A DNA stretch of 64,000 nucleotides, from the IMG/VR virus record IMGVR_UViG_3300028833_000074, positions 1 through 64,000 of that record, one strand, 5' to 3'. The position numbers were made by a program, and so were the translations under genes. Every line of letters starts with the position of its first letter. Positions within the stretch are counted from its first letter, which is position 1. This DNA comes from a virus (Duplodnaviria; Caudoviricetes). The notes below the pieces were generated by a model that worked only from the letters and a program-made list of their open reading frames with translations, was not told where the DNA came from and searched no databases. Below, piece by piece: positions 2,991 through 54,103 of the stretch.

Positions 2991-3005
2991 TTTAAATAGA
3001 TTAGA
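2991..3005 (+). promoter_or_regulatory. Archaeal-type late promoter, copy 1 (TTTAAATAGATTAGA)
   Basis: TATA box TTTAAATA followed by TTAGA. The same motif occurs at 11748, 28926 and 54089, each in an intergenic gap before an operon. Confidence 0.7.
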
Positions 3006-3062
3006 CATTATATTTCTTTACAACTCACGATTGTGAGCTAAATTTTGGAGAAAGTGATTTCA

Positions 3063-4142
3063 ATGAAGCAAACTTTTTCATTAAATTCAAACTTCTCTTT
3101 GAAACATAATGATGATGGAAGTACCCAATTAGAAGGGTTCGCAATTCATGGTGCTGATGATTTTATTGTAAATGGCTTCTACGAAGTGCCAGCATCAGAA
3201 ATGCAAAACTGCGCAAACTCATTAAAAGGCGCAAAGTTAATGAAAGACCATGATTGGAACCACGTCGACTCCATCATTGGAAGAGTCAATGATACCCAAG
3301 AATCTTTCGACGAAAAAGCACAAATGCAAGGTGTCAAATATGTGGCATCTTTAGTAGTTGACGATTCTAAATTAGGGGAAAAAATTGACAAAGGATTAAT
3401 CGATGCTACTTCTATAGGTTTTACATTTGAGCCAGAATGTAGTATTTGCCACAAACCATTTTTCAGCGAAGAATGTACACATCACCCACTTTTTGATGAT
3501 ATGCATTTTATTTGCAGAGATATGGAATGTAGAGAATTATCCTTGGTGACTTTTGGCGCAGACCCACATGCAAGTGTGAATGGTTCTTTTAGTGCCGAGA
3601 GTTTAGAAAAATTGAAAGAGAATTTTGCAAAACAGAAGGAAGAATTCATTATGACAAAGCAAGATACTATTGTTGAAGACCTCCAAACTGAAAATGCTGA
3701 ATTATCTCAAGAAATTAGAGATTTAGAAGCAAAATTAGAGCAAAAAGAAAAAGATTTCAAATCTGAAATTGAATCTTTAAAACTTGCTCATACTGAAGAG
3801 GTTTTAACTTTAAACAGAGAAAAAGACGCTCTTGATGAACAAATCGCTACTATGGGTGAAGAGTTATCCACTTATAGAGCAGAAGCAGAAGCAAGAGCAG
3901 AAAAAGAATTATCTGCTAAAAGAGAAAAATTAGTAGAATTAGCAACCGAATTAAAAACAGAAGTAGAAGGCATTGAAGAAATGTCCGAAGAATCTATTGA
4001 CGCTTGGATTGCAAGTTTTACTAAAATTATTGACAATACCCCAGTTGTACCTAAATTTACTGGTGCAGAACAACCACATGTTGTAGAAGATGAAAACAGA
4101 GAAGCATTTTCCGGTATTGGCAAATTCTTCGGCAGAGCATAA
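3063..4142 (+). CDS. Prohead (maturation) protease fused to a coiled-coil scaffold domain
   Basis: HK97-type protease motifs 'LMKDHD', 'IIGRV', 'ATSIGF', 'ELSLVTFGADPHA', with a CxxC...C-x-H insert. Acidic coiled-coil C-terminal half. Start moved to ATG 3063 after the GTGAT RBS. Confidence 0.88.
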   Translation: MKQTFSLNSNFSLKHNDDGSTQLEGFAIHGADDFIVNGFYEVPASEMQNCANSLKGAKLMKDHDWNHVDSIIGRVNDTQESFDEKAQMQGVKYVASLVVDDSKLGEKIDKGLIDATSIGFTFEPECSICHKPFFSEECTHHPLFDDMHFICRDMECRELSLVTFGADPHASVNGSFSAESLEKLKENFAKQKEEFIMTKQDTIVEDLQTENAELSQEIRDLEAKLEQKEKDFKSEIESLKLAHTEEVLTLNREKDALDEQIATMGEELSTYRAEAEARAEKELSAKREKLVELATELKTEVEGIEEMSEESIDAWIASFTKIIDNTPVVPKFTGAEQPHVVEDENREAFSGIGKFFGRA

Positions 4143-4156
4143 ATAGGTGATTTAAG

Positions 4157-4657
4157 ATGAGTGATATTACTGGTGACGCATTTACTATTCATGCAAAAGA
4201 AACCATCGTAAACGCTATTGAACACGTAGGTAAAACCAGTTCCCAAATGCAAGTAGGTAAGGCTATTGCATTAGATGGTGATGACGATGGAGCAAGATTG
4301 GCTATTGCAAGTGACGACCCATCCACTTTTATTGGAATCGTCAAAGCAGCATCCGGCGAATCCCAAGCAACATTTGCGGCTTCAAGAATGGTTAACGACG
4401 CAGTAACTGGTGCAAACCCAACTATGGCTCCTTACTATCAAGGTAATGTAACCATTCCAGAAGGTAAGGCTATGACTGTAGAAAGAAACTGTGTAACCTA
4501 TGTATTAATGAGCGAAGATGTTAAGGCTGGCGAACTTATCGCTTGTGACGCAGATGGTAAATTTAAACCAACATCTGACGCAAGCAAAGCAGTTGGTAGA
4601 GCATACTCTGCTAATGACGCTAACGATGTAGCAAGAGTCTACATCAGAGCAATATAA
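4157..4657 (+). CDS. Capsid decoration/cement protein (putative)
   Basis: 166 aa, Ala/Gly-rich beta protein between the scaffold and MCP. C-terminal 'VKAGELIACDADGKFKP...AVGRA' pattern resembles head decoration proteins. Confidence 0.65.
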   Translation: MSDITGDAFTIHAKETIVNAIEHVGKTSSQMQVGKAIALDGDDDGARLAIASDDPSTFIGIVKAASGESQATFAASRMVNDAVTGANPTMAPYYQGNVTIPEGKAMTVERNCVTYVLMSEDVKAGELIACDADGKFKPTSDASKAVGRAYSANDANDVARVYIRAI

Positions 4658-4670
4658 GGAGATAGATAAA

Positions 4671-5609
4671 ATGGCAAAGAGTTTAGCAAATTTCGCTGGT
4701 GGGGGCGCTGTTGTACACGATAACAGATTTGACCCAGAATTATCTGAAGACATTATCCAATACATCGAACAAGAATCCGACTTCAGACAATTTGTTGCAA
4801 AAGTTATTTCTACCGATACTTACGTAATTAATCTCCCAAGAAAATGGGCAGCCGGTATTGCAGTAGAAATCGTAGAAGGTTCCGAAATTCCTAAAGCAAG
4901 AGATGTATACGACGTCTTAACCATCAATTTAAGACAAATCGGTACTGGTATCAAAATGACCGATGAAGAACAAAAAATGATGGGCTTCGACAACAACTAC
5001 TTCTTAACTGAAGGAAGAAGAGCAACCGAAAGATTACTTAAAAAAGAAAACGACGACATTGCAGCAACTTTATTAACTGGTGCTGGATACAACATTATCA
5101 CTTCCACCAACACAACCTTAAAATTTGATGATATAGTAACTGCAAAAACTGAAATGCAAGAAAATCCATATGGAATTAACCCAGATGTTATTTTAATGTC
5201 TCCACGTTCTTACGCAGATTTATTAAGAGACCCAGACTTTAAAACTTATTCCAACTCCGGTATCGCTGGAGTAGTTACATCTGGAACTGTAGGAGAATAC
5301 GTTGATGGTATGAGAATTCTTATCATTCCAGAAGTTAAAGACGACATCTACTTAATTGATACATCTCAAGAACCACTTGTATTAATCCAAATGGATAGCG
5401 TACATACTGAATCTTACAGATTACATGAAACTCGTGAAGATGTATTAGACATTAATCTTTATGAAAAACCAGCAGTCTTAAGACCAGACGCAATTTGTAA
5501 AATAACCATTACAAGAAACGACACTCTCAAACAAAGAGAATTCCCAGAAGGCTGGGACCCATTCGATGGATATCCACAAAGGCCATCTCCCAGCGGGTCC
5601 GGAGGGTAA
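4671..5609 (+). CDS. Major capsid protein (HK97 fold)
   Basis: 312 aa in the expected position. E-loop 'EIVEGSEIP', backbone helix, 'PDVILMSPRSYADL', 'VDGMRILI', C-terminal 'VLRPDAICKI'. Confidence 0.88.
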   Translation: MAKSLANFAGGGAVVHDNRFDPELSEDIIQYIEQESDFRQFVAKVISTDTYVINLPRKWAAGIAVEIVEGSEIPKARDVYDVLTINLRQIGTGIKMTDEEQKMMGFDNNYFLTEGRRATERLLKKENDDIAATLLTGAGYNIITSTNTTLKFDDIVTAKTEMQENPYGINPDVILMSPRSYADLLRDPDFKTYSNSGIAGVVTSGTVGEYVDGMRILIIPEVKDDIYLIDTSQEPLVLIQMDSVHTESYRLHETREDVLDINLYEKPAVLRPDAICKITITRNDTLKQREFPEGWDPFDGYPQRPSPSGSGG

Positions 5610-5952
5610 CTCCGGTGGTCAACAAGGTCAAGGCGACCAACAAGGTCAAGGTGGCCAACAAGGTCAAAATGACCAACAAGCAACAACACATAATGTAACA
5701 TTTACTGTTACAAATGCTACTAACCAAAAATTATCTGGTGTAACTGTAACATTAACAGACATCAATGATAGTACCAATACTGCATCTGATATAACAGATA
5801 GCGATGGTAGTGTTAGTATCGCTGTTAAGGCCGGTACTTATTCTGTAACTGCAGAAAGAGATACATATACAGCCCCAGCAAGCATTGAAAATGTAACTGT
5901 AACTGATGCTGACGTTGATGTTGCTACTGCGATTGTAATGACAAAAGATTAA
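5605..5952 (+). CDS. Gly/Gln linker + Ig-like (carboxypeptidase-regulatory-like) domain; probable +1-recoded C-terminal extension of the MCP
   Basis: Lies in the +1 frame and overlaps the MCP stop (GGG TAA C -> GGT AAC). No convincing independent start. Ig-like pattern 'VTFTVTN...LSGVTVTL...TDSDGSVSIAVKAGTYSVTAERDTY'. Confidence 0.7.
   Translation, partial: GNSGGQQGQGDQQGQGGQQGQNDQQATTHNVTFTVTNATNQKLSGVTVTLTDINDSTNTASDITDSDGSVSIAVKAGTYSVTAERDTYTAPASIENVTVTDADVDVATAIVMTKD
5620..5679 (+). repeat. 18-bp tandem repeat (CAACAAGGTCAA core) encoding a QQGQG(D/G) linker
   Basis: Three units plus a partial fourth: caacaaggtcaaggcgac / caacaaggtcaaggtggc / caacaaggtcaaaatgac / caacaa. Confidence 0.85.
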
Positions 5953-5996
5953 TCAAATAATACTATATAAATAAAAAAAAAGCGAGGCAAGATAAA

Positions 5997-6368
5997 ATGG
6001 CAAAAAAACAACAAAAATTAATCCAAATCACTTATAATCCTCAATTTAGCGCAGCCGAATCAAAAACTGTATTATTAAGGGAACAACAACAAACTGTTGT
6101 CGGTAATGCTGTCAGAAGAGATTACGTTCCAGTAATTGAAGGCTTACCAACCGAATTCACCATTAAAAAAGGTGAAATAAAAGAAGTAACACTCGAACAA
6201 TTTAAAGCATTATATGAATTGGGGTTAATTGACACGCCAGAAGATATTGAGGAACGTCGTGCTGAAATCAACAAAGTTGAAAGTCAAGTCGGCGTTAACC
6301 CACGTGAATATAAAATGGCTGGACAATTAGCGCCATTATTTAATGAAAACTTTACATTGGTGGAATAA
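5997..6368 (+). CDS. Hypothetical virion/morphogenesis protein
   Basis: 123 aa with a GAGG RBS, between the capsid and adaptor genes. Confidence 0.6.
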   Translation: MAKKQQKLIQITYNPQFSAAESKTVLLREQQQTVVGNAVRRDYVPVIEGLPTEFTIKKGEIKEVTLEQFKALYELGLIDTPEDIEERRAEINKVESQVGVNPREYKMAGQLAPLFNENFTLVE

Positions 6369-6372
6369 ATAA

Positions 6373-7197
6373 ATGATAATTGATATCCCATACATAAAAC
6401 AAGCATTAGGCATAGAAATTGAAGACGAAAAAATTTCTTACCTCCTTGCTCACTTTTTTGATTACATATGTGAGCATATAAATATCGACACAACATTAGA
6501 ACAAGAAGAAATATCAATACAACCACTAAACACTCCGATATTAAATCCCACATTTCCAAACGATGACCTAACCTTGTTCCAAGAAACACTCATATTTGCA
6601 ATTGCTTGCAACCTATCTACCATGGGAATATCAATTAACAATATTTCACAAGAGATATACAACGAATACATTCCTTTTTTTGATACAAGCAAATTATCTT
6701 TAACAGAAGATAACACACAATATAAAATAACATATTGTGATATTTTTGATAACTGCCTACAAAGATTGACTGATTATTTAAGTACAAACTCCAATGTAGG
6801 ATATTTAAGAAGACTCTTGGATATCGACCCAGATGATGTTGGCGATAGCGAGATAGAATTTCTCATTGAACATTATACCAAATATCTTTCCGATGTTATT
6901 CCAAACGTAGATGTTAAATCACCGCTTTTTCAACAAGCAGTATTTTTATCAGTTGCATGTCACATATTCAAGGTAAACCCAACAGCCATCACTACACCTA
7001 TTATGTATTATGTAGATGAAGTGAGAGAAAGGTTTCAAATTGATTTTGACAAATTTGGTAATACATGGTGTGATTTAGCAGATGCAGCATTAAGTGATTT
7101 AAAAAAGAAAACATATGGATACTATGGTCTTCGTGCATACGATAGGCCGGGCGCCAGAACCAAATATGGAGTACATGGACCTTCAAGTAGGTTATAA
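6373..7197 (+). CDS. Head-tail adaptor-like protein with an internally duplicated domain
   Basis: Position after the MCP. Two similar helical halves (YIKQALGI..EDEKISYLLAHFFDYI / YLRRLLDI..GDSEIEFLIEHYTKYL; LFQETLIFAIACNL / LFQQAVFLSVACHI). Confidence 0.6.
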   Translation: MIIDIPYIKQALGIEIEDEKISYLLAHFFDYICEHINIDTTLEQEEISIQPLNTPILNPTFPNDDLTLFQETLIFAIACNLSTMGISINNISQEIYNEYIPFFDTSKLSLTEDNTQYKITYCDIFDNCLQRLTDYLSTNSNVGYLRRLLDIDPDDVGDSEIEFLIEHYTKYLSDVIPNVDVKSPLFQQAVFLSVACHIFKVNPTAITTPIMYYVDEVRERFQIDFDKFGNTWCDLADAALSDLKKKTYGYYGLRAYDRPGARTKYGVHGPSSRL

Positions 7198-7198
7198 A

Positions 7199-7639
7199 AT
7201 GAGTTTTAATAGAATTTGTCGGATTATCAAAAGACCAACAGAACATTATTACTTGCAAGAAAAAATTAAATATCAAAAACAAAAACCAGATATTTATAAA
7301 GACGAAGTGGGTAATATTATTCGTAAAGATGATGTTGGAAACATTTCTGAAACATGGCAAGACGTCATGGAGTTAGAAGGTGTTATACAACATAGACAAG
7401 GTCTTAAAGTTGATAATCAAGGTGAAGAATCTAAATTACGATACTATGGATACTTTAAACCAAATTTTAATCTTATCACAGATAAATTGACAAATTATCG
7501 AGTCAAATTTGTACGTGATTATGAAACTCTATATTTGAAAATTATCAAATATGACCCCAACAATTTTTTAAGACATAAACAACACCATATCGTGTTAATT
7601 ATGCAAGAAGATTTAAAATATGAAGGTAGACAAGAATGA
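7199..7639 (+). CDS. Head closure/stopper protein (putative)
   Basis: Synteny. 'DDVGNISETWQDVMELEGVIQ' resembles head-closure proteins. Start taken at ATG 7199, just after the upstream stop. Confidence 0.55.
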   Translation: MSFNRICRIIKRPTEHYYLQEKIKYQKQKPDIYKDEVGNIIRKDDVGNISETWQDVMELEGVIQHRQGLKVDNQGEESKLRYYGYFKPNFNLITDKLTNYRVKFVRDYETLYLKIIKYDPNNFLRHKQHHIVLIMQEDLKYEGRQE

Positions 7640-8184
7640 GCGTCATGTGTGATGTCATTATGGAAGGTGGCTCCATGCCACAAGACAGCATAAAAAAATT
7701 ATCACGTGCTGTCAACAGAGTGGCAAGTGGAAAAACACTCCAACAGCAACAACCAATCATATCAAGAAAATTCAAAAATATTATTGACAGAGAATCCAGT
7801 AAGGCTGGTATGGTAAATGATGTCAGTAAATATTTTTATGTCAATGTAAGAAATAATCAAGTGATTATCGGTAATACCGCCCCACTTTTGATTAATCGAT
7901 ATGAATATGGTTGGGAAGATGACATAAATCAAGAATACTATGAAAGTTGGGAAAATGATATAAGCGACGATGAATACTTGGCCGATTACCAGTCAATTAC
8001 GAGTCCACGTTATTATGTTCGTCCAGCAATTGAAGAAATTCATAAATTTTTAGTTACTCTCGTACGAGAACAAGTTTGGAGCGAATACGATAAAGAAGGT
8101 AGTTTGGTGCAACCATATTATGAATGGCATGCAGAATTATCAGAATATTCAAATTATTTAAATAAATATGATGGTGTATTATGA
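7636..8184 (+). CDS. Neck / tail-completion protein (putative)
   Basis: ATGA overlap with the upstream gene. 'RYEYG...PRYYVRPAIE' resembles HK97 gp10-type neck proteins. Confidence 0.55.
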   Translation: MSVMCDVIMEGGSMPQDSIKKLSRAVNRVASGKTLQQQQPIISRKFKNIIDRESSKAGMVNDVSKYFYVNVRNNQVIIGNTAPLLINRYEYGWEDDINQEYYESWENDISDDEYLADYQSITSPRYYVRPAIEEIHKFLVTLVREQVWSEYDKEGSLVQPYYEWHAELSEYSNYLNKYDGVL

Positions 8185-9189: not shown

Positions 9190-9190
9190 A

Positions 9191-11702: not shown

Positions 11703-11731
11703 AGCCCAACTTTTTGTTGGGCTTTTTTTTT
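11703..11731 (+). terminator. Hairpin + oligo-T terminator after the head/tail operon
   Basis: AGCCCAAC-TTTTT-GTTGGGCT followed by a T-tract. Confidence 0.85.
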
Positions 11732-11747
11732 CGTTCTTTTTTTATTA

Positions 11748-11762
11748 TTTATATGTTTTAGA
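11748..11762 (+). promoter_or_regulatory. Late promoter motif, copy 2 (TTTATATGTTTTAGA)
   Basis: Matches the shared 15-bp motif. Lies right after a terminator and ~40 nt before the GAGGT RBS/ATG of the TAC gene. Confidence 0.6.
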
Positions 11763-11802
11763 AATTACACTAATATTATAAAATATAATTGAGGTTTAAA
11801 TT

Positions 11803-28925: not shown

Positions 28926-28940
28926 TTTAAATATATTAGA
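28926..28940 (+). promoter_or_regulatory. Late promoter motif, copy 3 (TTTAAATATATTAGA)
   Basis: Matches the shared motif; ~40 nt upstream of the GAGGT RBS/ATG 28979. Confidence 0.7.
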
Positions 28941-28978
28941 AAATATATTCCTTATTAATTATTTTTTTGAGGTTTAAA

Positions 28979-37900: not shown

Positions 37901-40165
37901 ATACAAGAAAGCAATAAGGAATTTAATATTGCAATTCCAAATACATACATTGGTAATCATACACTTGAATTATTTTATCATGATTCAGAAATTTTCAGTA
38001 ATTATCACAAAAAATTTGTTTTTGAAATATTACCAAAAACACTTGAATTACATATGGATGATATCGATGTTACGTTGGATAATGATATCGATATTACATT
38101 ACAATTAAATGATATAACAAATGGCTTTATTAAATTTTATATTGGTGATGTTTATACAAATGATAATAACGAATACGAGTTAATTGATAATAACTTAAAA
38201 TTTATTGGCATTGAACAAATTACTGATACAATCATTACTTATTCATATCAATTACCATCAACATTATATTATAATAAATATTATATTAAAGCAGTTTTTG
38301 AAGGCAATAATCAATATGGCGCTTCTGAAACAACATGCTTATTAAATATTATACCACAAGAAACTGTTTTATCTATCCAATCTGATACATATACTGATGA
38401 TGAGTTCCAACGTCCTATTATTGAAGCGACATACCAAGAAACTATTGATATTATAGTTACGAGTAATATTGTAAGCCAAGAGCCTATTTATTTGTATATT
38501 AATAATAAATATATCGGTGAATTATTATTAAATAATTATGAAGGTTTATATCATCTCCCATTGCCAAAAGAATATGTCGAAGGCGAATATGAAATTAAAG
38601 CGGAATATTTAGGTAGTGCAGTTATAAAACCTCAAACAACTTATGCAACATTAAAAATTAATAAATTTACTCCAATCATTCAAACATTAGAATATAATGC
38701 ATATATTGGTGGAGAATTAACGTTAGATAATATTTTATTAGATAATAATAACATACCAATTTATCAAGGTTCTTTAGCATGCACATTAAATAATAATGAT
38801 ATTACAGTATATCCAAGCGTTAGCAAAACTATTACATTGGATAATAATTGCATTCATGATAGTGTGATTACATTAAAGTATGAACCATCAGAAAGTGATG
38901 TTAATAAATTTAACGCATTTGAACAAGATATCTCACTTATTATGAATAAAAATGATTTAAAAATTAATATGCATACTATTCCAGAAGTATATCGTGGTGA
39001 TATTTTTGATGTGCGTTTTGAAGTTACAAGTGAAACAACTACATTGCCAATTAATATTGATGGTTACATTAATGATGAAAACATCTCTATTATTGAAGGT
39101 ATATGCGAATCACAATTAAGTATTGATGTCGAAGAGACTTATAATCGTAGATATACTTTTACTATTAGCATCCCAGAAAATGATATTTTTAATACATTAG
39201 AATCATATCATTTTGATGTGATGTGTCGTAATTATCAAAAGGTTTATGTGGATTATGATACGACAAATAATCATAACATTAATAGTGGTCAAATGGCTCA
39301 TACCATTGAAAAAGGATTAGATTTAGTTGCAGATAATGGAACAATTTATCTATACTCTGATATTACCGATGAAAATATCATTATTGATAAGCGTGTACAT
39401 TTAACTACTGCAGATAATCAACCATGTGTTGAATTTAATCAAGTCCATATTAATAGTGATGCATCATTTAATTTATACAATGTTATTTGTAATAATACAA
39501 CCATACATACTACCAATGCTACATCAATTGATAATTGTAGTTTTATCAATAATGATGATACTGCTATATTAGTGGAGAATGGTGAGTTATATATCAATAA
39601 TACTTTATTCAATAATAACCATGCTACAAATGGTGCGTGTATTTATGTAAGCAATAAAAATAAAAATACAGAAATTACAAATTGTACTTTTACTAACAAT
39701 AGTGCAGATATTTATGGTGGTGCAATTTATTCTGATAAAGGTAATAATGTATTAATCAGTCATTGTATATTTAGACATAATAGCGCTACAAATGGTGCAT
39801 CTATCTATATTAATGGTAATGGTGTTATTTCTGAAAATAATTTTTATGAAAACAATGGTACATCTGAAATTATGATTATCGCTGGTATTATTGAAAGTAT
39901 GTTGAATTTATTCGATGGTAATATTTGCGCTTTTAAAAACAATGGATATATCACTTCTAATATGTGTTATTGGGGTACAAATGATATTATAGAGATTGAA
40001 GATGCATTGTACAATAATAATCTAAATAATAATCAAATCATCATTGACTCATGGTTAATTATGACAGATAACATTATTAATAAATATACCACAAAAGATG
40101 CTCCAGATATACAAACAACTATCAATACAATAAATTACATTGAGTTTGATGGGGGTTCTAAATAA
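28979..40165 (+). CDS. Giant baseplate-anchored adhesin-like protein (many Ig-like domains, three beta-helix modules)
   Basis: ~3,728 aa. N-terminal 'LDTLGELLSLPRR' is baseplate-wedge-like. Repeated Ig-like units (G.V.FYI......G.Y.I.A.Y.G...Y..S). Beta-helix modules end in NNWWGSN / YCWFGTN / MCYWGTN, with GGAIY/NGACIY repeats. Confidence 0.8.
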   Translation: MQYSDINFHNDFRGNLRQTAWSSLFPYWYTEDDFLKTIGDEIELIKAQGVFKLLNIGVKPPIMIWQTSLNHEEYHINQHITEEENIIQITAPLYKTWGIIEITSNSELSNLQIMINDNDGIVIPIDIPKNAQIYLDLENQLFYLNNKQINVLTFGQGMPYFITSRHNKVYNHDTPLHNEVINLTFSSKDPIDLDVDVLLKNVVFENEQNIEVTSLESLPIEKIVLYAKYDFPYNPDVNGWKKVYEKKYQSDTHVVYDMITTRFYTKKFYAEVWFKGIDYPYTVGFPAYKDADASSMYHVNSELDTLGELLSLPRRIYKTDIPEEDYPFTFPIFYPFDIEQDYWYYSRLVNEYCYNDLAIDSVDILDTDNTPVVRLHSINPFVEDFVVYSHSSYPIDYKNINYHEYIPSFVSEVNDKLGHTSHHNIENLLKYDDYYTYNNLLSKSNNNISYESYKSKPLLMWFNTSDLPEDVNITGFEIILDAESTDNAFTKYNDERTNLFITPDTLYGQIQSSGHFELTRKNIVYGGKNELFELEYLPENDSHIIQKIIIKPFSGHPKQLMEIPFVYYEDDKIIDNINDVFVVFYDDNNECIESKQGYYYSELRNDKTYRYIEVEVPNADNIKNISILSTTNLYHPFNVNVEVDMENDSFEGPIDDDENIHTETFDKEWDTGNLRDLLNEYGLYFNYALTNDSENNTSTVLLHNATLRIYHTPKTSHFKLDTNIINASRLNNTAQLEVQITNNGEKTLNTHIDIISASNLKLSNNYIEVNLQSGDSIVEVIDIKPEYNIQDGIYDIITICEDQSKTNYMKITSGGLIRTNVILKPHFTKINKQVTLTAQVQTINKDTINGSPNKIEFYINNFYVGESIVNQNQAEYTIIPSDYSFINAGNAKLTAKFIDGSKYTTSYAHNNIFIDKNDITIDINTEDTIIQGKPYYIRANVTYVDDNGVRHNVEEGTITAFINDVELFTKELNNGVLEAYPIIDENAGDAILTIRYNNTDKYPQSEISKNVVIVGGTTQVTVFDASGKPNDNVTIKVKVTDTNNVAVPSGYLDYTISAPDIEDIILTDREIHNGIDEINITIPSNIIIEDDDVRILDVTVNYHNLQSNNMTDDTLFNNSQGVGHIYVKKGDVLIQDSILFNASAYEPLGFYVKVIDANTGEPIPEGQVTITIPRQNNITITTDVDEDGGARLLYNPIQFTADEWNKLERTRFIICDSDPQALDNNSEPLYNENHPYEIYYSQDSDLYYLYDYTEDEEPTCELLQRIGRDNSVNLLDFYIVDGVLYYQSNYDDDIEHIYIDEDGYLYARAANDSLRQYNEGVFDIIIDYNGGYQYKNQFAESKIKISIPQIDVDMHSYNMSYNNPINVKSYITEYSWDIHTPTQWIQEGTVNYYIDGKLLDSANVINGLAILSTNKLLSIPHGKHLLTAEFVADMPTYTHVLLNIEQITPIIEPQFDRIFSNKKSELDVYVRTPNNFEVSGDLSVYIDDVEIGYVLLTGEEDGHAHFTIQMPNLENEVHILKITYSGNDYIRSHEIEQVLRPEQLEVTTICESHIITTPENTIQIPVQITSRDNDNISEGYVALFNIENDQEIARTFMTNNRGMLTLTAPNDYGNYQYSVQYKNGVNYKDDEFHIIDVQVIEGQEIVYADGNTDPENTGHYIDLITAMRAVVNNGTVYLTNEEKNTGVINNDYYFTKDVNIIGTNGAKITKDMSDLITNEDDIKMYHQDDFTDEDFAQMHKLDFLSKASLNTSEYRLINKDIYYINNNELVPVYIIDGDFYSTLNISKKHTTIYTNGHNINLHNIIFENNDVENDLLIYNNGVLTITYSIINDNIAIDNYDTLTINRSLMYGKLRLPSNNVDLNNNWWGSNEAPFNVDNHIILSISTLETPPVISESINVQLQLIGANGREYLLPAPYFKMYADSGIIAHEYGQLSNSKIITQYDDAVQEGKVYGEVDNQIVSLDVYDYDRKTEVILESIHKVPTNHQITLKAIVQSVADVFFKFDDNNNIIKQSNSINNGYVIFSLNNERIGKAYVQDGIAELPTFLSANVYSLGDAILSAKYIPSEYYFASDSNQHITIIDDNEYCFMSTFGDDNNNGTFNEPVQTLQRACELDKKILIKDGIYEGNHISIDKETHIEAYNDNVTFTNNTFINNDDLYITGINFKNNDNVIFENHGRLYINQCIFTDNQEYIVDNNDESITSIVDSVILDKNIVTDYSKLSTMEYCWFGTNEPNDSEQGPILDDYTINKYYIMSVESSKNIIYIGSVVRLVAMLQDVYDNGTIYHNKERPLPLRIAYFETDAGSLMPLKDYTYHKQATTLLNTNDNLNSNKVILTTPKNINYINQPLKLEIYVDEANGSPIQNGTITLNINDGNKTIVQHQKVTINHGIATYINDSINLTQGTYNLTCVYYDNATTYKGAYTFEVKRDEVQFNNIYIDNYDHIYELTFNADVVTNSGNIVEQQEVYCYIDDVMATNTLTNRNKFIINNGQALFNMIYNEIPAGVHTLTITNENCSSSYETFKFTTKFTAYEKETTIHFNYNGIEQNVPTDLLISVTDNNAKIIDGDISIYINDEIVEQDNQTTFALNNGQYVLQDVQLTQGQYSIVIYYHGVTDYYQESIFVKNDFNVGIHAVHISNEGPITTYIGDEYIFDFNILDIYDNIVEIGMVNLYVNNNLINDTPINISENHHISYPFAISYLSAGVHNLTVEYIDDSNAYLNTNIYLDMIVNKIDTIISIEPIDSYPNANVNVNYDIHTNSNNMVNSGILIAKLEDKIIGQAQVSDIINRYITLNIPFKPSGNYDIIFEYYDADNKYANNSITVPLIIKNGSINITTSHDSYYPNQEFPLEIRITDDNDDAVNYGFVSLYIDNVRESDPLPVKYGEVRYPLLLKQIRDYPITIVYEGNEYYQETTYTQNIAVNNIQIRDINIVEELKSLPDTKHDYHLTFTTMDDYNVYDGIIDFIFDSDVIHSYYIQESNKEFNIAIPNTYIGNHTLELFYHDSEIFSNYHKKFVFEILPKTLELHMDDIDVTLDNDIDITLQLNDITNGFIKFYIGDVYTNDNNEYELIDNNLKFIGIEQITDTIITYSYQLPSTLYYNKYYIKAVFEGNNQYGASETTCLLNIIPQETVLSIQSDTYTDDEFQRPIIEATYQETIDIIVTSNIVSQEPIYLYINNKYIGELLLNNYEGLYHLPLPKEYVEGEYEIKAEYLGSAVIKPQTTYATLKINKFTPIIQTLEYNAYIGGELTLDNILLDNNNIPIYQGSLACTLNNNDITVYPSVSKTITLDNNCIHDSVITLKYEPSESDVNKFNAFEQDISLIMNKNDLKINMHTIPEVYRGDIFDVRFEVTSETTTLPINIDGYINDENISIIEGICESQLSIDVEETYNRRYTFTISIPENDIFNTLESYHFDVMCRNYQKVYVDYDTTNNHNINSGQMAHTIEKGLDLVADNGTIYLYSDITDENIIIDKRVHLTTADNQPCVEFNQVHINSDASFNLYNVICNNTTIHTTNATSIDNCSFINNDDTAILVENGELYINNTLFNNNHATNGACIYVSNKNKNTEITNCTFTNNSADIYGGAIYSDKGNNVLISHCIFRHNSATNGASIYINGNGVISENNFYENNGTSEIMIIAGIIESMLNLFDGNICAFKNNGYITSNMCYWGTNDIIEIEDALYNNNLNNNQIIIDSWLIMTDNIINKYTTKDAPDIQTTINTINYIEFDGGSK

Positions 40166-42568: not shown

Positions 42569-42578
42569 GTGACAAAAA

Positions 42579-46778: not shown

Positions 46779-46789
46779 GGTGATAACAA

Positions 46790-48388: not shown

Positions 48389-48396
48389 GTGATACG

Positions 48397-49455: not shown

Positions 49456-49473
49456 TAATAGGAGAACAATATA

Positions 49474-50505
49474 ATGCCATCTTATAATTATAATTGGGAA
49501 ACATCTGATTTTAGTATGGGATTAGGTGAAACTGTAACTATTACATTAAGTTATATCAATAAAGGACAAAGTATCCCTATTTTTGAAGATGGTGTTCAAA
49601 TAGGTACAACAACAACAAACACTTACAATTATACTCCAACAAGTAATGGAACACATACTCTGCATTACTTTGATACTATTTATTGTGAACCTTTGACTGT
49701 TATTGTAACTGGTAACGATACTACAACCCTTAATGGTGCTTTAACAGAACTTGGGGAAACTTTGGCAGATAATCTTGAGAGTATGGGAGTAACTGCAAGT
49801 GCAGATGATGGATTGACAACATTAGCAGTAAAAATACTTAAAATAGGTAAAAATACACCAACACCATCTACTGTCATCTATGAAGATGATTGTAGTGTAG
49901 ACAATACAAACGATTATGGTAGCAGTATACCTTTAAGGAATGGGTCATCAACTATTGCTTATAATAGTAATGGATACTACACCATTACTAATAATAGTTC
50001 TAATTCAGAGAGTTTTATCCCCATAACTGAATTAACTGGACTTACTACTGATTTTACACTTGAATATGACTCCTATGTTCAACAAATAGGTGGTTCAAGT
50101 GGATTAGTAATTTATAATTCATCTACTGCTTGGGTTAAATTGACTGATGATGCAAGTAGTGATAAGAGATTGTGGCATGGTTATAATGATGGTAGTTTTC
50201 ACGAAACTGGTTTCTCTGGTACTGAAACATCATATCAGAAATGGGTTCATTACAAATATACTGTTCAAGATGGTGTTTTTACTATGAAAGTAACTTATAA
50301 TGATAATCAAATTGCTTTTTATGTTACACAAATACATTTTACAATAAATAGTAGTACAAAAATCGGTTTGGATAGCGAATGGGCTTCAAATACTGTTACA
50401 AGATATAAGAACATTATTGTTAAGACATTAGGTAGTGGTGATTGCAGTCAGTACACTACACAAATCAACAATGCAATTGCTTACATAAATGGAGATGGTA
50501 ACTAA
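49474..50505 (+). CDS. Receptor-binding/fibre protein with a lectin-like (ConA/LamG-type) domain
   Basis: Anchor motif 'LADNLESMGV..DGLTTLAVKILKI'; beta-sandwich region 'DFTLEYD...KWVHYKYTVQDG'. Confidence 0.55.
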   Translation: MPSYNYNWETSDFSMGLGETVTITLSYINKGQSIPIFEDGVQIGTTTTNTYNYTPTSNGTHTLHYFDTIYCEPLTVIVTGNDTTTLNGALTELGETLADNLESMGVTASADDGLTTLAVKILKIGKNTPTPSTVIYEDDCSVDNTNDYGSSIPLRNGSSTIAYNSNGYYTITNNSSNSESFIPITELTGLTTDFTLEYDSYVQQIGGSSGLVIYNSSTAWVKLTDDASSDKRLWHGYNDGSFHETGFSGTETSYQKWVHYKYTVQDGVFTMKVTYNDNQIAFYVTQIHFTINSSTKIGLDSEWASNTVTRYKNIIVKTLGSGDCSQYTTQINNAIAYINGDGN

Positions 50506-51308
50506 TGACTAATGACACAACAACTCTTCAAGGTAGCCTTGATGAAATGAAAGACCAGTTAATCTACGAATTAGGTGAAAAGGGAGTTACTACAAGTTAT
50601 GATTCTACTACTGGTTTGTTAGGTTTGATTAATAAGATTAGTGAGATTCAACAAGGGGGTGGTGGTCAAGAGATTGTTTCTTTTGATAATATCACAACAG
50701 AATTTAATTATACACAAAAAAGAGGGAATTATGGATTTAGTGTTAGTATTCCAAGTGGTGTTACAAGTTTAGGAAAAAATTGCTTTAATGGTTGTAGTGG
50801 TTTGACTAATGTTACTATCCCAAGTAGTGTTACAAGTATAGGAGATAGTTGTTTCCAAGGTTGTAGTAGTTTAACCAGTATTACTATTCCAAGTAGTGTT
50901 ACAAGTATAGGAGGTTTTTGTTTCTATAGTTGTAGTGGTTTGAATAGTATTACTATCCCAAATAGTGTTACAAGTATAGGGAATAGTTGTTTCTATAGTT
51001 GTAATGGTTTGAATAGTATTACTATCCCAAGTAGTATTACAAGTATAGGGAATAGTTGTTTCTATAGTTGTAAGGGTTTGAATAGTATTACTATCCCAAG
51101 TAGTGTTACAAGTATAGGAAGTAATTGTTTCAGAAATTGCACTAAACTTGTGGATTATCAATTATACTGGGAAACACCACCAGTAACTTGGTCTTCCAAC
51201 TTAATGCCAAATAACACAAACACATACTTCACTATACCTCAAGGAACAACTGCTAATTATGTAGCGAAAAGTTTCCCAAGTGGTAAACTTGTTGAAAGAA
51301 GTGGATAA
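50505..51308 (+). CDS. BspA-type leucine-rich-repeat (LRR_5) receptor-binding protein
   Basis: Six 23-aa repeats 'IPSSVTSIGxxCFxxCxxLxSIT' after an N-terminal anchor helix. Confidence 0.9.
   Translation: MTNDTTTLQGSLDEMKDQLIYELGEKGVTTSYDSTTGLLGLINKISEIQQGGGGQEIVSFDNITTEFNYTQKRGNYGFSVSIPSGVTSLGKNCFNGCSGLTNVTIPSSVTSIGDSCFQGCSSLTSITIPSSVTSIGGFCFYSCSGLNSITIPNSVTSIGNSCFYSCNGLNSITIPSSITSIGNSCFYSCKGLNSITIPSSVTSIGSNCFRNCTKLVDYQLYWETPPVTWSSNLMPNNTNTYFTIPQGTTANYVAKSFPSGKLVERSG
50748..51152 (+). repeat. Six 69-bp tandem repeats (LRR coding)
   Basis: Units start at 50748, 50817, 50886, 50955, 51024 and 51093. Units 3-5 are nearly identical. Confidence 0.92.
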
Positions 51309-51355
51309 TCCAACAATGCTGAAAAAAAATAAAAAACATTAGGAGAAAATAAAAA

Positions 51356-51664
51356 ATGAAAAAAGAAACAATATATAGTGGATTTGACATCTACTACAAT
51401 GATGAAATTTGCATTGCAGAAGTGGACACAAGCATATTGAATTTGGGCATTCAGAAAAACATCTGGTGTCCGACCGATGCCACCGATACTACTGTGCCAA
51501 AAGCATTAAGACCGAAGGTGCCAGTTACAGTACGTAATAATGGAACTGGACAGATATGGCTTCAATTGAAACCAAATGGATTTTTAGAAGCGTACTCAAC
51601 AAGAGATTGGGATGCGAATAAAGATATAAAAATTAAAGCAACATTAGTATGGAGAAAACAATAA
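51356..51664 (+). CDS. Small beta-rich protein resembling a tail-fibre C-terminal domain
   Basis: AGGAG RBS; 'VPKALRPK...LQLKPNG..' pattern. Confidence 0.5.
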   Translation: MKKETIYSGFDIYYNDEICIAEVDTSILNLGIQKNIWCPTDATDTTVPKALRPKVPVTVRNNGTGQIWLQLKPNGFLEAYSTRDWDANKDIKIKATLVWRKQ

Positions 51665-51689
51665 AATATTTTATTTTTGGAGTTACAAT

Positions 51690-51890
51690 ATGATTAAAGA
51701 AGTATTATTGGGATTGGGAATAATTGGAATCATTGTTTTATTTTGTTTGATTACTTTAATTCCTCTTATTTGTACAATTATTTTAGGCACGTATTTTGCA
51801 ACCACAATTGGATTAGAAGGCATAACTTGGTGGGCTTTTGTAATTATTTTTTATTTAATTATAGCGGGAATTTTAGGAGCGTTGACATAA
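51690..51890 (+). CDS. Small membrane protein, putative holin
   Basis: 66 aa, almost entirely hydrophobic (2-3 transmembrane segments), GGAG RBS, upstream of the endolysin. Confidence 0.55.
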   Translation: MIKEVLLGLGIIGIIVLFCLITLIPLICTIILGTYFATTIGLEGITWWAFVIIFYLIIAGILGALT

Positions 51891-51891
51891 T

Positions 51892-52764
51892 ATGAAAATA
51901 AAATTAATGTTATTGTTATTTATTTTATTTATGTGCATTGGTAGTGCATATGGTGGAAATAACACTACAGACATACCGAATCCCCAAATGTTAGAAGATA
52001 TCGGATTAAACACTACCATAGCATTAGAAAGTGGTGATAGTAACATAACATTCAGTAATAATATGACTGGTTACTGTATAGAATATCGTGAACATAGTGC
52101 AAATGCCAATGATACATTCTATATAGCAAATACATCAAAAACAATAAACAAGAATGATGGGTCTGATGTTAGCAATTATCTGAAAACATTTTTCATAAAA
52201 TTCTACAATCACACACTTCAAAATAACTTGACACATCGTGGGGAGCCAGTAAGTCAATCAATTTTTAATCAGCATATCATATGGCATTTCACAAATAATT
52301 TCACTTCACCAGTTACAGTCAACAGTTCTTGGTTAATAGATGGAATAATTAAAGAGTCGTTGAGAGAGAAGTTGAATGATAATGGTTATTATGATTATGA
52401 TAATGATACAAGGGCTTATTATAGTTTTGCTACTTTATTGGCAAGTTATGAAGAATACCAAAACTTTTTCGCTTATAATATTTATTTCACCGGTATTCCT
52501 TGTGACCATAATAACAACACCACCGATAATATTAATGAAACCATCAATGAAACAAACACAACCAACAGCAACACTACAGATAATCAAACAAACATTAACA
52601 ATACTACAGCACTTAACTTGAATATGCAAGAAAACAACAACACGTATACACTCAACAATGATAAATATATAGACTTGGTAAAACATAAAACTGGAAACAA
52701 TATCATAATATTGATAATAATCATAATATGTATACTCTGTATAAGTGCATTAACGAGAAAATGA
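51892..52764 (+). CDS. Secreted, C-terminally anchored Cys-Gln thioester-domain (TED)-like surface protein
   Basis: Signal peptide; GYCIE (Cys62), NQHIIWHF (TQxAIW-like), YQNFF (Gln190); Asn/Thr stalk; 'KTGN' followed by a hydrophobic helix and RK tail. Confidence 0.7.
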   Translation: MKIKLMLLLFILFMCIGSAYGGNNTTDIPNPQMLEDIGLNTTIALESGDSNITFSNNMTGYCIEYREHSANANDTFYIANTSKTINKNDGSDVSNYLKTFFIKFYNHTLQNNLTHRGEPVSQSIFNQHIIWHFTNNFTSPVTVNSSWLIDGIIKESLREKLNDNGYYDYDNDTRAYYSFATLLASYEEYQNFFAYNIYFTGIPCDHNNNTTDNINETINETNTTNSNTTDNQTNINNTTALNLNMQENNNTYTLNNDKYIDLVKHKTGNNIIILIIIIICILCISALTRK

Positions 52765-52784
52765 TAGATAAATAAGTGGATACT

Positions 52785-53885
52785 ATGAAATCAACATTAA
52801 TTAAACAAGAAGCAAAAGAAATACAAGCATTCATTGAAAAAAACAAAGAATTGCCAAAAATCTGTACCATTAATGGTAATGAATACAGCATCTACAGCAC
52901 TTCTTACTTGATTGCAAAATTGCTTGACACCAAACAAAGTGACATCAAGCCGATAACTGTATCAGCACCATCAACAACAATCACGACAAAAATCAATGAA
53001 CAAGTCACATCCCCAGATTATAAGGATATGATTAAAAGATTTGTCCAATATGTTGAAGCCAACAAAAAGGTGCCGGCATACGTCACTACAGTCAAAAGCA
53101 AAACAAAAGTTGAATACAAATTATTTGTATATTGCATGTGTAAGATAATCAATTTTTACTATAAGAATTCTAATACCTTGCCATTGTATTGTGTATTTAA
53201 TGATGCGGATTTTAAAAAATCTGCAACCACTACAAAAACTACACAAAAAACAACAAAGACATCTACATCAGCAACAAAAAAAACAACAACAAAATCAAAA
53301 TGTAGCAACCCATACACATCATCACCACATTACACCTCAAATGGCTGTAATAAATTAGGACAATGCACCGGATGGTGGTGCGGTCCTCATTCCATTCACC
53401 AAGCAATACGCAAATTCGGTATCACAAAATATACCGAAAAACAAATTGCTGGATGGGCTGGTACCACAACTGCCGGAACTGGACATTCTGGCTTGAACAC
53501 AGCAATTGCAAAAATATCAAACATGAGCGGTAAAAAATTATCTGTACAATGGAAAAATTTCTCCGATATGGGTGCGAACAGCGCAGAACGTTTTGCTAAT
53601 ATCGCTAAATTAATTTGTAAAGACGATGTTGCAATTATCTGGCATATTGCATATATCAATGGGGGTAACAGTACAAGCGGCAAACACTTTGGACACTATG
53701 AATGCATTGACAAAATCAATACAGCAACCAAGTATGTAAGAGCGCTTAACTCATTAGGCGACAAAAAATCTGATGGCAGTTATGCTGGAAAACTACAAGA
53801 CAGACCATATGATGTTCAAGGATACTTTGCACGCAATACGCCAGGCGGACAGCCAGCATTATGTATCATTAAGGTGATAAAATGA
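52785..53885 (+). CDS. Endolysin: pseudomurein endoisopeptidase-like (pseudomurein-binding repeats + C39-type cysteine peptidase, PeiR-like architecture)
   Basis: PMB-like repeats (IQAFIEKNKELP; FVQYVEANKKVPAYV; IINFYYKNSNTLP), a Thr/Lys linker, and catalytic 'QCTGWWCGPHS...GTT..GT...GHYECI...LNSL'. Confidence 0.85.
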   Translation: MKSTLIKQEAKEIQAFIEKNKELPKICTINGNEYSIYSTSYLIAKLLDTKQSDIKPITVSAPSTTITTKINEQVTSPDYKDMIKRFVQYVEANKKVPAYVTTVKSKTKVEYKLFVYCMCKIINFYYKNSNTLPLYCVFNDADFKKSATTTKTTQKTTKTSTSATKKTTTKSKCSNPYTSSPHYTSNGCNKLGQCTGWWCGPHSIHQAIRKFGITKYTEKQIAGWAGTTTAGTGHSGLNTAIAKISNMSGKKLSVQWKNFSDMGANSAERFANIAKLICKDDVAIIWHIAYINGGNSTSGKHFGHYECIDKINTATKYVRALNSLGDKKSDGSYAGKLQDRPYDVQGYFARNTPGGQPALCIIKVIK

Positions 53886-54055
53886 ATTATTTAGATATTT
53901 TACAAAAGATTAACAATATTTTATATAACATTTTTGGAGACAAAAAATTTGTTATCAATTTTCAAGTTTATATCAATCAAAAAAGATTTAAATTAAATAA
54001 AACTGATGCAACAGAGATTATTATTGAAGATGATGATGGAAAATTTGTGCAATAA
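53882..54055 (+). CDS. 57-aa protein absent from the ORF track (MNYLDILQKINNILYNIFGDKKFVINFQVYINQKRFKLNKTDATEIIIEDDDGKFVQ)
   Basis: Strong AAGGTGAT RBS, ATGA overlap with the endolysin stop, ends at the terminator. Confidence 0.75.
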   Translation: MNYLDILQKINNILYNIFGDKKFVINFQVYINQKRFKLNKTDATEIIIEDDDGKFVQ

Positions 54056-54072
54056 TTTCCATCTTTTTTTTT
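54035..54072 (+). terminator. Hairpin + oligo-T terminator after the lysis cassette
   Basis: GATGGAAA...TTTCCATC followed by T9. Confidence 0.7.
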
Positions 54073-54088
54073 CGACCATTTTCAACAT

Positions 54089-54103
54089 TTTATATATATT
54101 AGA
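54089..54103 (+). promoter_or_regulatory. Late promoter motif, copy 4 (TTTATATATATTAGA)
   Basis: Matches the shared motif; upstream of the GAGGT RBS/ATG 54138. Confidence 0.7.

What the first reader, a model, noticed from the sequence alone, without database searches (positions are those of the whole stretch)
2991..54103. Conserved 15-bp promoter motif TTTAWATRKWTTAGA before four structural operons
Seen: TTTAAATAGATTAGA (2991), TTTATATGTTTTAGA (11748), TTTAAATATATTAGA (28926) and TTTATATATATTAGA (54089). All are intergenic, 35-60 nt before a start codon. Three are followed by the same GAGGTTTAA RBS, and two directly follow a hairpin-T terminator. Established: TTTA(A/T)ATA is the archaeal TATA box. 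Inference: the invariant TTAGA downstream of the TATA box is a virus-specific late-promoter element, recognised by a viral activator or an alternative TFB/TBP encoded outside the window.
Basis: partly seen in the sequence, partly recalled or inferred. Interest (0 to 1): 0.72.

Follow-up and report, generated by a model that had tools for sequence, protein, structure and literature searches.

The report
Late-gene promoter motif of methanogen virus
A large virus of gut or rumen methanogens (archaea) puts the same promoter in front of each of its four particle-building gene blocks: a normal archaeal TATA box followed two bases later by an invariant TTAGA that host promoters lack, which gives a testable handle on how an archaeal virus switches on its late genes.

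Summary
All four 15-mers are present (0.05 expected by chance) and all lie between genes, 35-58 nt before a start codon.

Across the whole 152-kb genome the relaxed motif occurs 11 times:
- Seven are intergenic, against 0.17 expected, and all seven point at the next gene.
- Coding sequence holds four, against 1.4 expected.

The host is an archaeon of the Methanobacteriales. The lysis gene has a pseudomurein-binding repeat, and the genome is syntenic with Methanobacterium virus PhiF1. So TTTAWATA is an archaeal TATA box.

Two leaderless genes start exactly 31 nt from the first TATA base, and a conserved leader hairpin starts at 30. This puts TTAGA at about -20 to -16, where TFB cyclin repeat I touches DNA.

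At the head-operon promoter TTAGA is invariant in 13 diverged relatives, while the TATA box and flanks drift. The TATA-to-TTAGA spacing peak is absent from a 400-kb host sample, and PhiF1 has no copy.

The virus encodes no TFB, TBP or sigma factor. A viral activator remains possible; one conserved tandem-HTH protein is a candidate. "Late" timing is inferred from gene content only.

Verdict: a real, undescribed virus-specific promoter class. How it is read is unproven.

The parts
2991..3005 (+). Promoter 1: TATA box 2991-2998 (TTTAAATA), 2-nt spacer, TTAGA 3001-3005. Heads the head/neck/sheath operon (prohead protease-scaffold ATG 3063 through 11690).
   Evidence: TTAGA is invariant in 13 diverged orthologous promoters, while the TATA box, the spacer and the next 14 nt vary.
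3020..3039 (+). Predicted transcript start (3020-3021, index 30-31 from the first TATA base) and a conserved 5' leader hairpin (stem 3024-3028 / 3033-3037).
   Evidence: The hairpin begins at a fixed 14 nt after TTAGA in all relatives. One stem pair changes on both sides between clades (CTCAC/GTGAG versus CTTAC/GTAAG). No RNA data.
11703..11732 (+). Terminator-like hairpin (11703-11723) plus U9 that ends operon 1.
   Evidence: -13.8 kcal/mol, z -5.97.
11748..11762 (+). Promoter 2: TATA 11748-11755 (TTTATATG), TTAGA 11758-11762. Predicted start about 11777-11778; SD GAGGT 11791-11795; ATG 11803. Heads the tail operon (tape-measure protein and following tail genes, to 28918).
   Evidence: Orthologues read TTAGA (3 lineages), TCAGA (2), TTCGA and ATAGA; the final GA is invariant. 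The tape-measure domain is in the 2700-aa protein.
28926..28940 (+). Promoter 3: TATA 28926-28933 (TTTAAATA), TTAGA 28936-28940. Predicted start about 28955-28956; SD 28969-28973; ATG 28979. Heads the operon with the 3728-aa Ig-domain fibre/adhesin-like protein and the fibre and lysis genes (to about 54055).
   Evidence: The orthologue in G003 is identical. In G002 the TATA box has decayed (ATTAAGTG) but TTAGA is kept.
54035..54072 (+). Weak hairpin (54035-54063) plus U9 that ends operon 3.
   Evidence: -7.9 kcal/mol, z -1.0.
54089..54103 (+). Promoter 4: TATA 54089-54096 (TTTATATA), TTAGA 54099-54103. Predicted start about 54118-54119; SD 54127-54131; ATG 54138. Heads the last structural operon, which runs past the window end to about 75791 and includes a 2433-aa DUF11 protein.
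39187..39201 (+). Motif copy inside the giant gene (TTTTAATACATTAGA). Either an internal promoter or chance.
   Evidence: Four coding-sequence hits genome-wide against 1.4 expected, so not distinguishable from chance.
52776..53885 (+). Lysis protein with a pseudomurein-binding repeat. It identifies the host as a pseudomurein-walled methanogen and so fixes the promoter type as archaeal.
   Evidence: PF09373, E 1.6e-9. A 59%-identical homologue lies on a contig of an uncultured Methanobrevibacter genome.

Best explanation
These are archaeal promoters of a virus-specific class.

How it is built: the host's TBP binds the TATA octamer, centred near -26. Two bases further on, at about -20 to -16, sits an invariant TTAGA. 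The purine-rich BRE that normally lies upstream of the TATA box is missing. Transcription starts about 22-23 nt after the TATA box and gives a short leader with a strong Shine-Dalgarno site, or a leaderless mRNA.

What it does: this class heads every structural (presumably late) operon and a few small genes. A second viral class heads small non-structural genes on the other strand; it reads ACA-TTTATATA-kGATG and has a good BRE.

Most likely mechanism: TTAGA is the docking site of a class-specific factor that lets TBP/TFB/RNA polymerase assemble on promoters with a weak or absent BRE, and sometimes a weak TATA box. That factor is most likely a virus-encoded DNA-binding protein made earlier in infection. 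This would time the structural genes.

Shown here: the motif, its intergenic and strand-specific enrichment, the fixed spacing, its conservation in relatives, its absence from host promoters, the archaeal host, and the absence of a viral TFB or TBP.

Inferred: the start site, late timing, and the existence and nature of the factor.
For: Real and specific:
- 4 exact copies against 0.05 expected.
- 7 intergenic copies against 0.17 expected, all in sense orientation.
- The TATA-to-TTAGA spacing peaks at 3 nt: 11 copies against 0-3 at other spacings. The related genome G003 shows 4 against 0-2.

Functional constraint:
- At the head-operon promoter TTAGA is 13/13 invariant in relatives whose downstream protein is only 52-77% identical. 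The TATA box takes four forms, and the 3 nt before and 14 nt after TTAGA vary.
- In G002 site 3 keeps TTAGA beside a decayed TATA box.
- Site 2 tolerates only single changes and keeps GA.

Archaeal geometry:
- Two TTAGA promoters precede genes whose ATG lies exactly at index 31. Both are kept in relatives (149998- in G003; 90816+ in G002).
- The conserved leader hairpin of site 1 starts at index 30.

Archaeal host.

Position: in Pyrococcus furiosus complexes TFB1 cyclin repeat I cross-links at -20/-19 and -16/-17 (PMC13502027).

Not a host feature:
- 2 of 72 intergenic host TATA boxes carry TTAGA at that offset, and there is no spacing peak.
- Density is 0.83 per 100 kb in 16 genomes of the host genus (reversed-pattern control 0.53), against 5.9 in the virus.

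Class split: all four structural operons have TTAGA and none has the ACA-TATA class. All 9 ACATTTATATA copies are on the minus strand before non-structural genes.

Candidate factor: a tandem helix-turn-helix protein of about 124 aa (149323-149694, minus strand). It is transcribed from a TTAGA promoter, is present in all 7 TTAGA-bearing relatives that cover the region, and has no hit in PhiF1, which has no TTAGA promoter.
Against: - There are no RNA 5' ends, no time course and no binding data. The start site, 'late' timing and the factor are all inferred.
- The motif also precedes five non-structural or unknown small genes, so 'late' may be too narrow.
- The tandem-HTH link is weak: 179 of 204 proteins lack a PhiF1 hit. 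The protein also resembles small-terminase and invertase HTH domains, and its fold has no significant PDB match.
- -20 to -16 is where the host's own TFB touches DNA, so no extra factor may be needed.
- Factors that bind between the TATA box and the start site in archaea are usually repressors (general knowledge).
- G002 keeps TTAGA at only some sites. At site 2 it reads TTCGA.
Confidence: 0.55

Rival explanations
1. A basal-machinery element. TTAGA is an archaeal counterpart of the downstream TFIIB-recognition element. It is read directly by host TFB cyclin repeat I, possibly by one of two host TFB paralogues, and stands in for the missing upstream BRE. The virus supplies no factor. Timing, if any, comes from promoter strength or from which TFB paralogue is in use.
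For: TTAGA lies exactly where TFB1 cyclin repeat I cross-links (-20/-19 and -16/-17; PMC13502027). The virus has no TFB or TBP. Two genomes of the host genus each carry two full TFB genes. A few intergenic TATA+TTAGA modules exist in host genomes, some in tandem repeats.
Against: Host promoters show no preference for TTAGA at that offset (2 of 72) and no spacing peak. I found no sequence-specific downstream BRE described for archaea. A strictly invariant 5-mer is unusual for the minor-groove and backbone contacts of cyclin repeat I (general knowledge).
Confidence: 0.25
2. A repressor operator. TTAGA is bound by an early viral or host repressor that sits between the TATA box and the start site and blocks polymerase recruitment. 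The structural operons would stay silent until the repressor is titrated out or removed.
For: The position between the TATA box and the start site is the classic site of archaeal repressors (general knowledge). The motif is conserved and class-specific.
Against: These promoters lack a BRE, and in G002 some have poor TATA boxes yet keep TTAGA. That pattern fits an element that helps a weak core promoter, not one that shuts a strong one. A 5-bp asymmetric site without dyad symmetry is atypical for dimeric repressors.
Confidence: 0.12
3. Opposite or two-way orientation. Read on the other strand, the motif is TCTAA-NN-TATWTAAA, with AA at the positions where a BRE has its key adenines. On this reading the sites fire leftwards, as antisense or bidirectional promoters.
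For: The reverse reading puts A at -2/-3 from the TATA box, like the GAAA-NN of the canonical viral class. Archaeal TATA boxes are nearly symmetric (general knowledge).
Against: Every conserved downstream landmark lies in the forward direction at fixed spacing: leaderless ATGs at index 31, the leader hairpin at index 30, and the Shine-Dalgarno site and start codon. The sequence on the other side is not conserved among relatives, and no minus-strand genes lie there.
Confidence: 0.05
4. A bacterial phage late promoter, with TTTAWATA as a T4-like -10 element or TTAGA as an SPO1-like late -35 element, read by a phage sigma factor.
For: There is a surface resemblance to T4 TATAAATA and to the SPO1 late -35 element CGTTAGA (both recalled from memory). 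Strong GGAG ribosome sites and hairpin-U terminators look bacterial.
Against: The host is a pseudomurein-walled methanogen. No sigma-70 region 2 is found anywhere in the genome. There is no conserved -10 element 17 nt after TTAGA. Methanobacteriales also use Shine-Dalgarno sites and oligo-T termination (general knowledge).
Confidence: 0.02

Closest known systems
Canonical archaeal BRE/TATA core promoter (methanogen 'box A' TTTATATA)
   Same: A TATA octamer of the TTTAWATA type centred near -26. The start site is about 22-23 nt after the box. Host RNA polymerase is used. The same virus also has textbook examples (ACA-TTTATATA class).
   Different: No purine-rich BRE upstream; the upstream flank is pyrimidine-rich instead. 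An invariant 5-mer sits at -20 to -16 that host promoters lack.
Virus-specific consensus element in promoters of the Sulfolobus rudiviruses SIRV1/SIRV2 (stated in PMC1635249; from memory, a GTC just downstream of the TATA box, Kessler et al. 2004)
   Same: An archaeal virus adds its own short conserved element to an otherwise host-type TATA promoter, which suggests virus-specific control.
   Different: The host lineage differs (Crenarchaeota versus Methanobacteriales), as do the sequence and the virus type (rod-shaped versus tailed). In SIRV most promoters carry the element and temporal control is weak. Here only one class carries it, and that class includes all structural operons.
Consensus regulatory sequences around strong BRE/TATA cores of early anti-defence genes in crenarchaeal viruses (PMC11065993)
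   Same: Virus-specific conserved flanks around a TATA core mark one temporal class of genes.
   Different: Those mark early genes and have strong BREs. This motif marks structural operons and lacks a BRE. The ACA-TTTATATA-kGATG class of this virus is the closer analogue of those.
Eukaryotic downstream TFIIB-recognition element (BREd)
   Same: It lies immediately downstream of the TATA box, in the zone touched by the first cyclin repeat of TFIIB/TFB.
   Different: The sequence does not fit the BREd consensus RTDKKKK (recalled from memory). I found no archaeal counterpart described. Whether TFB reads TTAGA is untested.
Dedicated late-promoter systems of other viruses: T4 TATAAATA with gp55/gp33/gp45, and the beta/gamma-herpesvirus TATT box with a viral TBP-like protein (PMC7498053)
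   Same: It works like them in outline: a distinct promoter class placed before structural genes.
   Different: No viral sigma, TBP or TFB homologue is encoded here. The TATA box itself is normal, and the specificity lies in an adjacent element.

Membership tests
Archaeal core promoter | TATA box of the TTTAWATA type about 26 nt upstream of the start site, in a virus of an archaeal host | tested here: met
   TATA octamers at all sites. Archaeal host. Leaderless ATGs at index 31 and the leader hairpin at index 30 put the TATA centre near -26.
Archaeal core promoter | Purine-rich BRE immediately upstream of the TATA box | tested here: not met
   In 35 TTAGA-class promoters the positions -5 to -1 are mainly T or C and G is rare. 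The ACA-TTTATATA class of the same genome does have the BRE.
Archaeal core promoter | Mapped transcription start 22-27 nt downstream of the TATA box | not testable with these tools
   No RNA data. Only indirect spacing evidence.
Downstream TFIIB-recognition element (BREd) | Lies directly downstream of the TATA box in the TFB/TFIIB cyclin-repeat-I contact zone | tested here: met
   TTAGA is at about -20 to -16. TFB1 F192 cross-links at -20/-19 and -16/-17 (PMC13502027).
Downstream TFIIB-recognition element (BREd) | Consensus RTDKKKK, read by TFIIB/TFB | tested here: not met
   Index 9-15 reads GATTAGA, TTTTAGA or TATTAGA, which does not fit the consensus (recalled from memory). Binding by TFB was not tested.
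Viral late transcription through a virus-encoded general factor (viral TBP, TFB or sigma) | The virus encodes a TBP, TFB or sigma homologue | tested here: not met
   No PF00352, PF00382 or PF04542 match at E<=1 in the complete genome. PF08271 matches are all below cut-off and lie in unrelated proteins. Very divergent homologues could be missed.
Virus-specific promoter element of archaeal viruses (SIRV type) | A short conserved element next to the TATA box, enriched in viral but not host promoters | tested here: met
Late (structural) temporal class | Transcripts appear after early genes and depend on earlier viral functions | not testable with these tools
   Only gene content supports it. All four structural operons carry the motif.

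The most novel reading that the evidence does not exclude
TTAGA is the binding site of a previously unknown virus-encoded transcription activator. The tandem-HTH protein at 149323-149694, which sits behind its own TTAGA promoter, is one candidate. The activator would dock beside TBP at the place normally held by TFB cyclin repeat I and recruit the host machinery to BRE-less promoters. That would be an archaeal counterpart of phage late-gene activators, and the first defined early-to-late switch in a tailed virus of methanogens.
Probability: 0.3. Interest if true: 0.8.

Novelty: new variant of a known kind. Interest (0 to 1): 0.6.

Why it matters
Almost nothing is known about how tailed archaeal viruses time their genes, least of all viruses of the gut and rumen methanogens. 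The papers on Methanobrevibacter viruses that I checked do not mention promoters.

This motif gives three things:
- A clean cis-element with a precise predicted start site.
- A natural negative control: the same virus's BRE-type promoters, and PhiF1.
- A short list of candidate factors.

Late-gene control in this group can therefore be tested directly by in vitro transcription, DNA pull-down or metatranscriptome 5'-end mapping. A sequence-specific element in the TFB cyclin-I contact zone would also interest people who study archaeal and eukaryotic initiation. The motif also helps annotation, because it marks operon starts in related uncultured viruses.

Tried and rejected
- **Bacterial host and sigma-type promoter.** This was my first reading, at 60%. 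The TATAAT+GGAG units in the early region and a DnaE polymerase suggested it. I dropped it after the pseudomurein-binding repeat, the PhiF1 TerL hit and synteny, and the absence of sigma region 2.
- **An SPO1-like -35/-10 pair.** There is no conserved hexamer about 17 nt after TTAGA.
- **Nucleotide search of phage records.** No match.
- **Scans for relatives.**
  - A scan of viral contigs with the 183-aa protein downstream of site 2 found nothing, because the back-translated patterns were poor.
  - Viral-contig scans with two other proteins gave only three relatives.
  - The metagenome scan gave 16 loci.
- **k-mer enrichment in intergenic DNA.** It did not pick out TTAGA. The copies are too few, and the signal is swamped by TATA runs, Shine-Dalgarno sites and the AGATTCGCA repeat.
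- **Host genomes.** The motif is only 1.5 times its reversed control. The second host TFB gene has one TATA+TTAGA site about 1.2 kb upstream, which shows no meaningful link.
- **PhiF1.** No copy of the motif, so the one isolated relative cannot serve as a test bed for it.
- **Tandem-HTH protein.** Profile search and fold search against solved structures gave only generic HTH domains (LuxR/FixJ, Hin, Tc3, AraC, SIRV1 ORF55), and none was significant for the whole protein.
- **Two small zinc-ribbon ORFs next to the 107919 promoter.** They are not conserved in the relatives I hold, and their Pfam matches are below cut-off.
- **Literature.** I found no paper that describes this motif. The 'TTAGA' hits in the Sta1 paper are primer sequences.

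Full report
**1. The observation**

The pattern TTTAWATRKWTTAGA occurs four times in the window, at 2991, 11748, 28926 and 54089, all on the + strand. Shuffles expect 0.05 copies.

Each copy lies between genes. From the motif end to the start codon the distances are 58, 41, 39 and 35 nt. For site 1 the real start is ATG 3063, as the aligned orthologues show.

Sites 2-4 share GAGGTTTAA before the ATG. Sites 2 and 4 follow a hairpin plus U9; the hairpin is strong at 11703-11723 and weak at 54035-54063.

**2. The genome and its host**

The window is the first 64 kb of a 152,284-bp virus contig rated complete.

- Plus strand, 1-75.8 kb: terminase, portal, protease-scaffold, capsid, sheath, a 2700-aa tape-measure protein, and giant Ig-like/DUF11 fibre-like proteins.
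- Minus strand, 75.8-150 kb: small genes plus replication genes.

I first leaned towards a bacterial host. Three results overturned that:

- The lysis-region protein 52776-53885 has a pseudomurein-binding repeat. Its 59%-identical homologue lies in an uncultured Methanobrevibacter genome.
- The best isolate match of TerL is Methanobacterium virus PhiF1 (36% identity, 1e-57).
- PhiF1 has the same gene order and shares 25 proteins.

Earlier notes of this scan had also called the host a methanogen; I checked that independently as above. TTTAWATA is therefore to be read as an archaeal TATA box.

**3. Enrichment**

In the whole genome TTTWWATNNNTTAGA occurs 11 times.

- Seven copies fall in the 7.6% of the genome that is intergenic. 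A first-order Markov model of intergenic composition expects 0.17, and none of 300 simulations reached 7.
- All seven face the next gene.
- The four coding-sequence copies are near expectation (1.4).

The coupling also depends on spacing. With TTTWWAT-N(k)-TTAGA, k=3 gives 11 copies and every other k from 0 to 12 gives 0-3. The 50-kb relative G003 gives 4 against 0-2.

**4. Geometry**

Two further TTAGA promoters outside the window precede genes whose ATG lies exactly at index 31, counted from the first TATA base. Both spacings are kept in relatives:

- 149998(-), kept in G003.
- 90816(+), kept in G002, where the element reads TCAGA.

At site 1 a leader hairpin starts at index 30 in all relatives, always 14 nt after TTAGA. 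One stem pair changes on both sides between clades.

These landmarks place the start site at index 30-31, the TATA centre near -26 and TTAGA at -20 to -16. No RNA data are available, so this is an inference.

**5. Conservation**

I collected orthologous head-operon promoters from 13 distinct relatives. The downstream protein is 52-77% identical among them.

- TTAGA is invariant in all 13.
- The TATA box takes four forms.
- The 3 nt between TATA and TTAGA vary.
- The 14 nt after TTAGA are almost unconserved.

At site 2 the element reads TTAGA in three lineages, TCAGA in two, and TTCGA and ATAGA in one each. GA is invariant.

At site 3, G003 is identical. G002 has a decayed TATA box (ATTAAGTG) but keeps TTAGA.

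PhiF1, which is more distant, has no copy of the motif.

**6. Virus versus host**

- In 16 genomes of the host genus the motif is 1.5 times as frequent as its reversed control (263 against 170 in about 32 Mb; 0.83 per 100 kb). The virus has 5.9 per 100 kb.
- In a 400-kb sample of a complete genome of the host genus, 72 intergenic sense TATA boxes were found. Two carry TTAGA at the right offset. No base downstream of the TATA box is conserved, and there is no spacing peak.
- A few host intergenic regions hold TATA+TTAGA modules in short tandem repeats. I cannot explain these.

**7. Two promoter classes**

A second class reads (a/g)AAACA-TTTATATA-kGATG, followed about 15 nt later by cTATATGTG. 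It has a textbook BRE. It occurs only on the minus strand, before small non-structural genes.

The TTAGA class lacks a BRE; its upstream flank is pyrimidine-rich. It heads all four structural operons. The same class also precedes:

- a small plus-strand island at 90.8 kb;
- an Ig-domain gene (107919-);
- the operon at 149998(-);
- in weaker form, two promoters upstream of a histone-fold gene (77634-, 77085-).

**8. What reads TTAGA?**

The virus has no TFB cyclin domain, TBP or sigma-70 region 2. Its TFB-type zinc-ribbon matches are all below cut-off. It has no RNA-polymerase domain in the giant proteins.

In P. furiosus, TFB1 cyclin repeat I cross-links at -20/-19 and -16/-17 (PMC13502027), which is exactly where TTAGA lies. 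Two genomes of the host genus carry two TFB genes each.

Three readings remain:

- A class-specific factor, most likely viral, that helps weak BRE-less promoters.
- Direct reading by a host TFB.
- A repressor operator.

I favour the first, for three reasons. TTAGA is strictly invariant, host promoters lack it, and it persists beside decayed TATA boxes.

One candidate is a conserved tandem-HTH protein (149323-149694, minus strand). It is present in every TTAGA-bearing relative that covers the region, and it sits behind a TTAGA promoter. The link is weak.

**9. Comparison and novelty**

Virus-specific elements next to archaeal TATA boxes are known from the Sulfolobus rudiviruses (PMC1635249). 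Conserved flanks also mark early anti-defence genes of crenarchaeal viruses (PMC11065993).

I found nothing of the kind described for tailed viruses of methanogens, for structural operons, or for the position -20 to -16.

I could not see its sequence, and a sequence look-up found nothing.

I class the finding as a new variant of a known kind. It is real and conserved; the mechanism is unproven.

Noticed in passing
G000 minus strand, outside the window: 150054, 146426, 136494, 134935, 132455, 128852, 125920, 124288, 99372, 90807: A second conserved promoter class: (a/g)AAACA-TTTATATA-kGATG, then about 15 nt, then cTATATGTG. It has a good BRE and stands before small non-structural genes. It resembles the strong early promoters described for anti-defence genes of crenarchaeal viruses (PMC11065993).
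   Followed up: partly
window 3020-3039: A conserved 5' leader hairpin at the predicted start of the head-operon mRNA. One stem pair changes on both sides between clades. It may stabilise the mRNA or control translation.
   Followed up: partly
G000 75794-76033 (-) = L001:14797-15033: A 79-aa histone-fold protein (PF00808, E 1.9e-14) is the last gene of a small minus-strand operon that lies behind TTAGA-like promoters (77634-, 77085-). It may be a late, perhaps packaged, viral histone.
   Followed up: no
G000 149323-149694 (-) = L005:16323-16694: A tandem helix-turn-helix protein of about 124 aa, conserved in all relatives that cover the region. It sits in the divergent region next to the terminase block. 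It could be a regulator or a small terminase subunit.
   Followed up: partly
G000 about 149946-149953 and 150000-150007 (L005 16946-16953 and 17000-17007): An 8-bp inverted repeat, TGTCCTAC ... GTAGGACA, brackets the leaderless TTAGA promoter at 149998(-) and is kept in G003. Three more GTAGGACA copies lie in the 391-aa gene downstream. Possibly an operator or a packaging-related site.
   Followed up: partly
Genomes of the host genus: G017:C1:58612-58706 and G016:C47:38288-38329: Short intergenic tandem repeats (periods of about 40 and 27 nt) in which each unit holds a TATA-like box plus TTAGA. Unexplained.
   Followed up: no
G000 136-146 kb (-), e.g. 138743-139283, 140178-140302, 141347-141396: A repeated unit AGATTCGCA-N12-TATAAT(W)A-...GGAG...ATG follows the tRNA-like elements. 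The TATA-like box lies 24-30 nt before the ATG, close to the TATA-to-start spacing inferred here. These units might be internal promoters for leaderless mRNAs, in which case the array would not be promoter-less.
   Followed up: no
G000 107943-108128 (-) and 108334-108600 (-): Two small zinc-ribbon ORFs (61 and 88 aa) lie directly upstream of the TTAGA promoter at 107919(-). The 61-aa ORF was missed by my gene call. Neither is conserved in the relatives I hold.
   Followed up: partly
window 27-95 and G000 152178-152246: The sequence around position 39 recurs at 152190, so the contig ends overlap. The genome is probably circularly closed or permuted, and TerL spans the junction.
   Followed up: no
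L006 (JAGAIU010000011.1): A 147-kb relative of this archaeal virus is binned in a genome labelled 'Clostridia bacterium'. This is probably a binning error.
   Followed up: no
window 50505-51308: A BspA-type leucine-rich-repeat protein (PF13306, E 1e-55) sits in the fibre/lysis operon.
   Followed up: no
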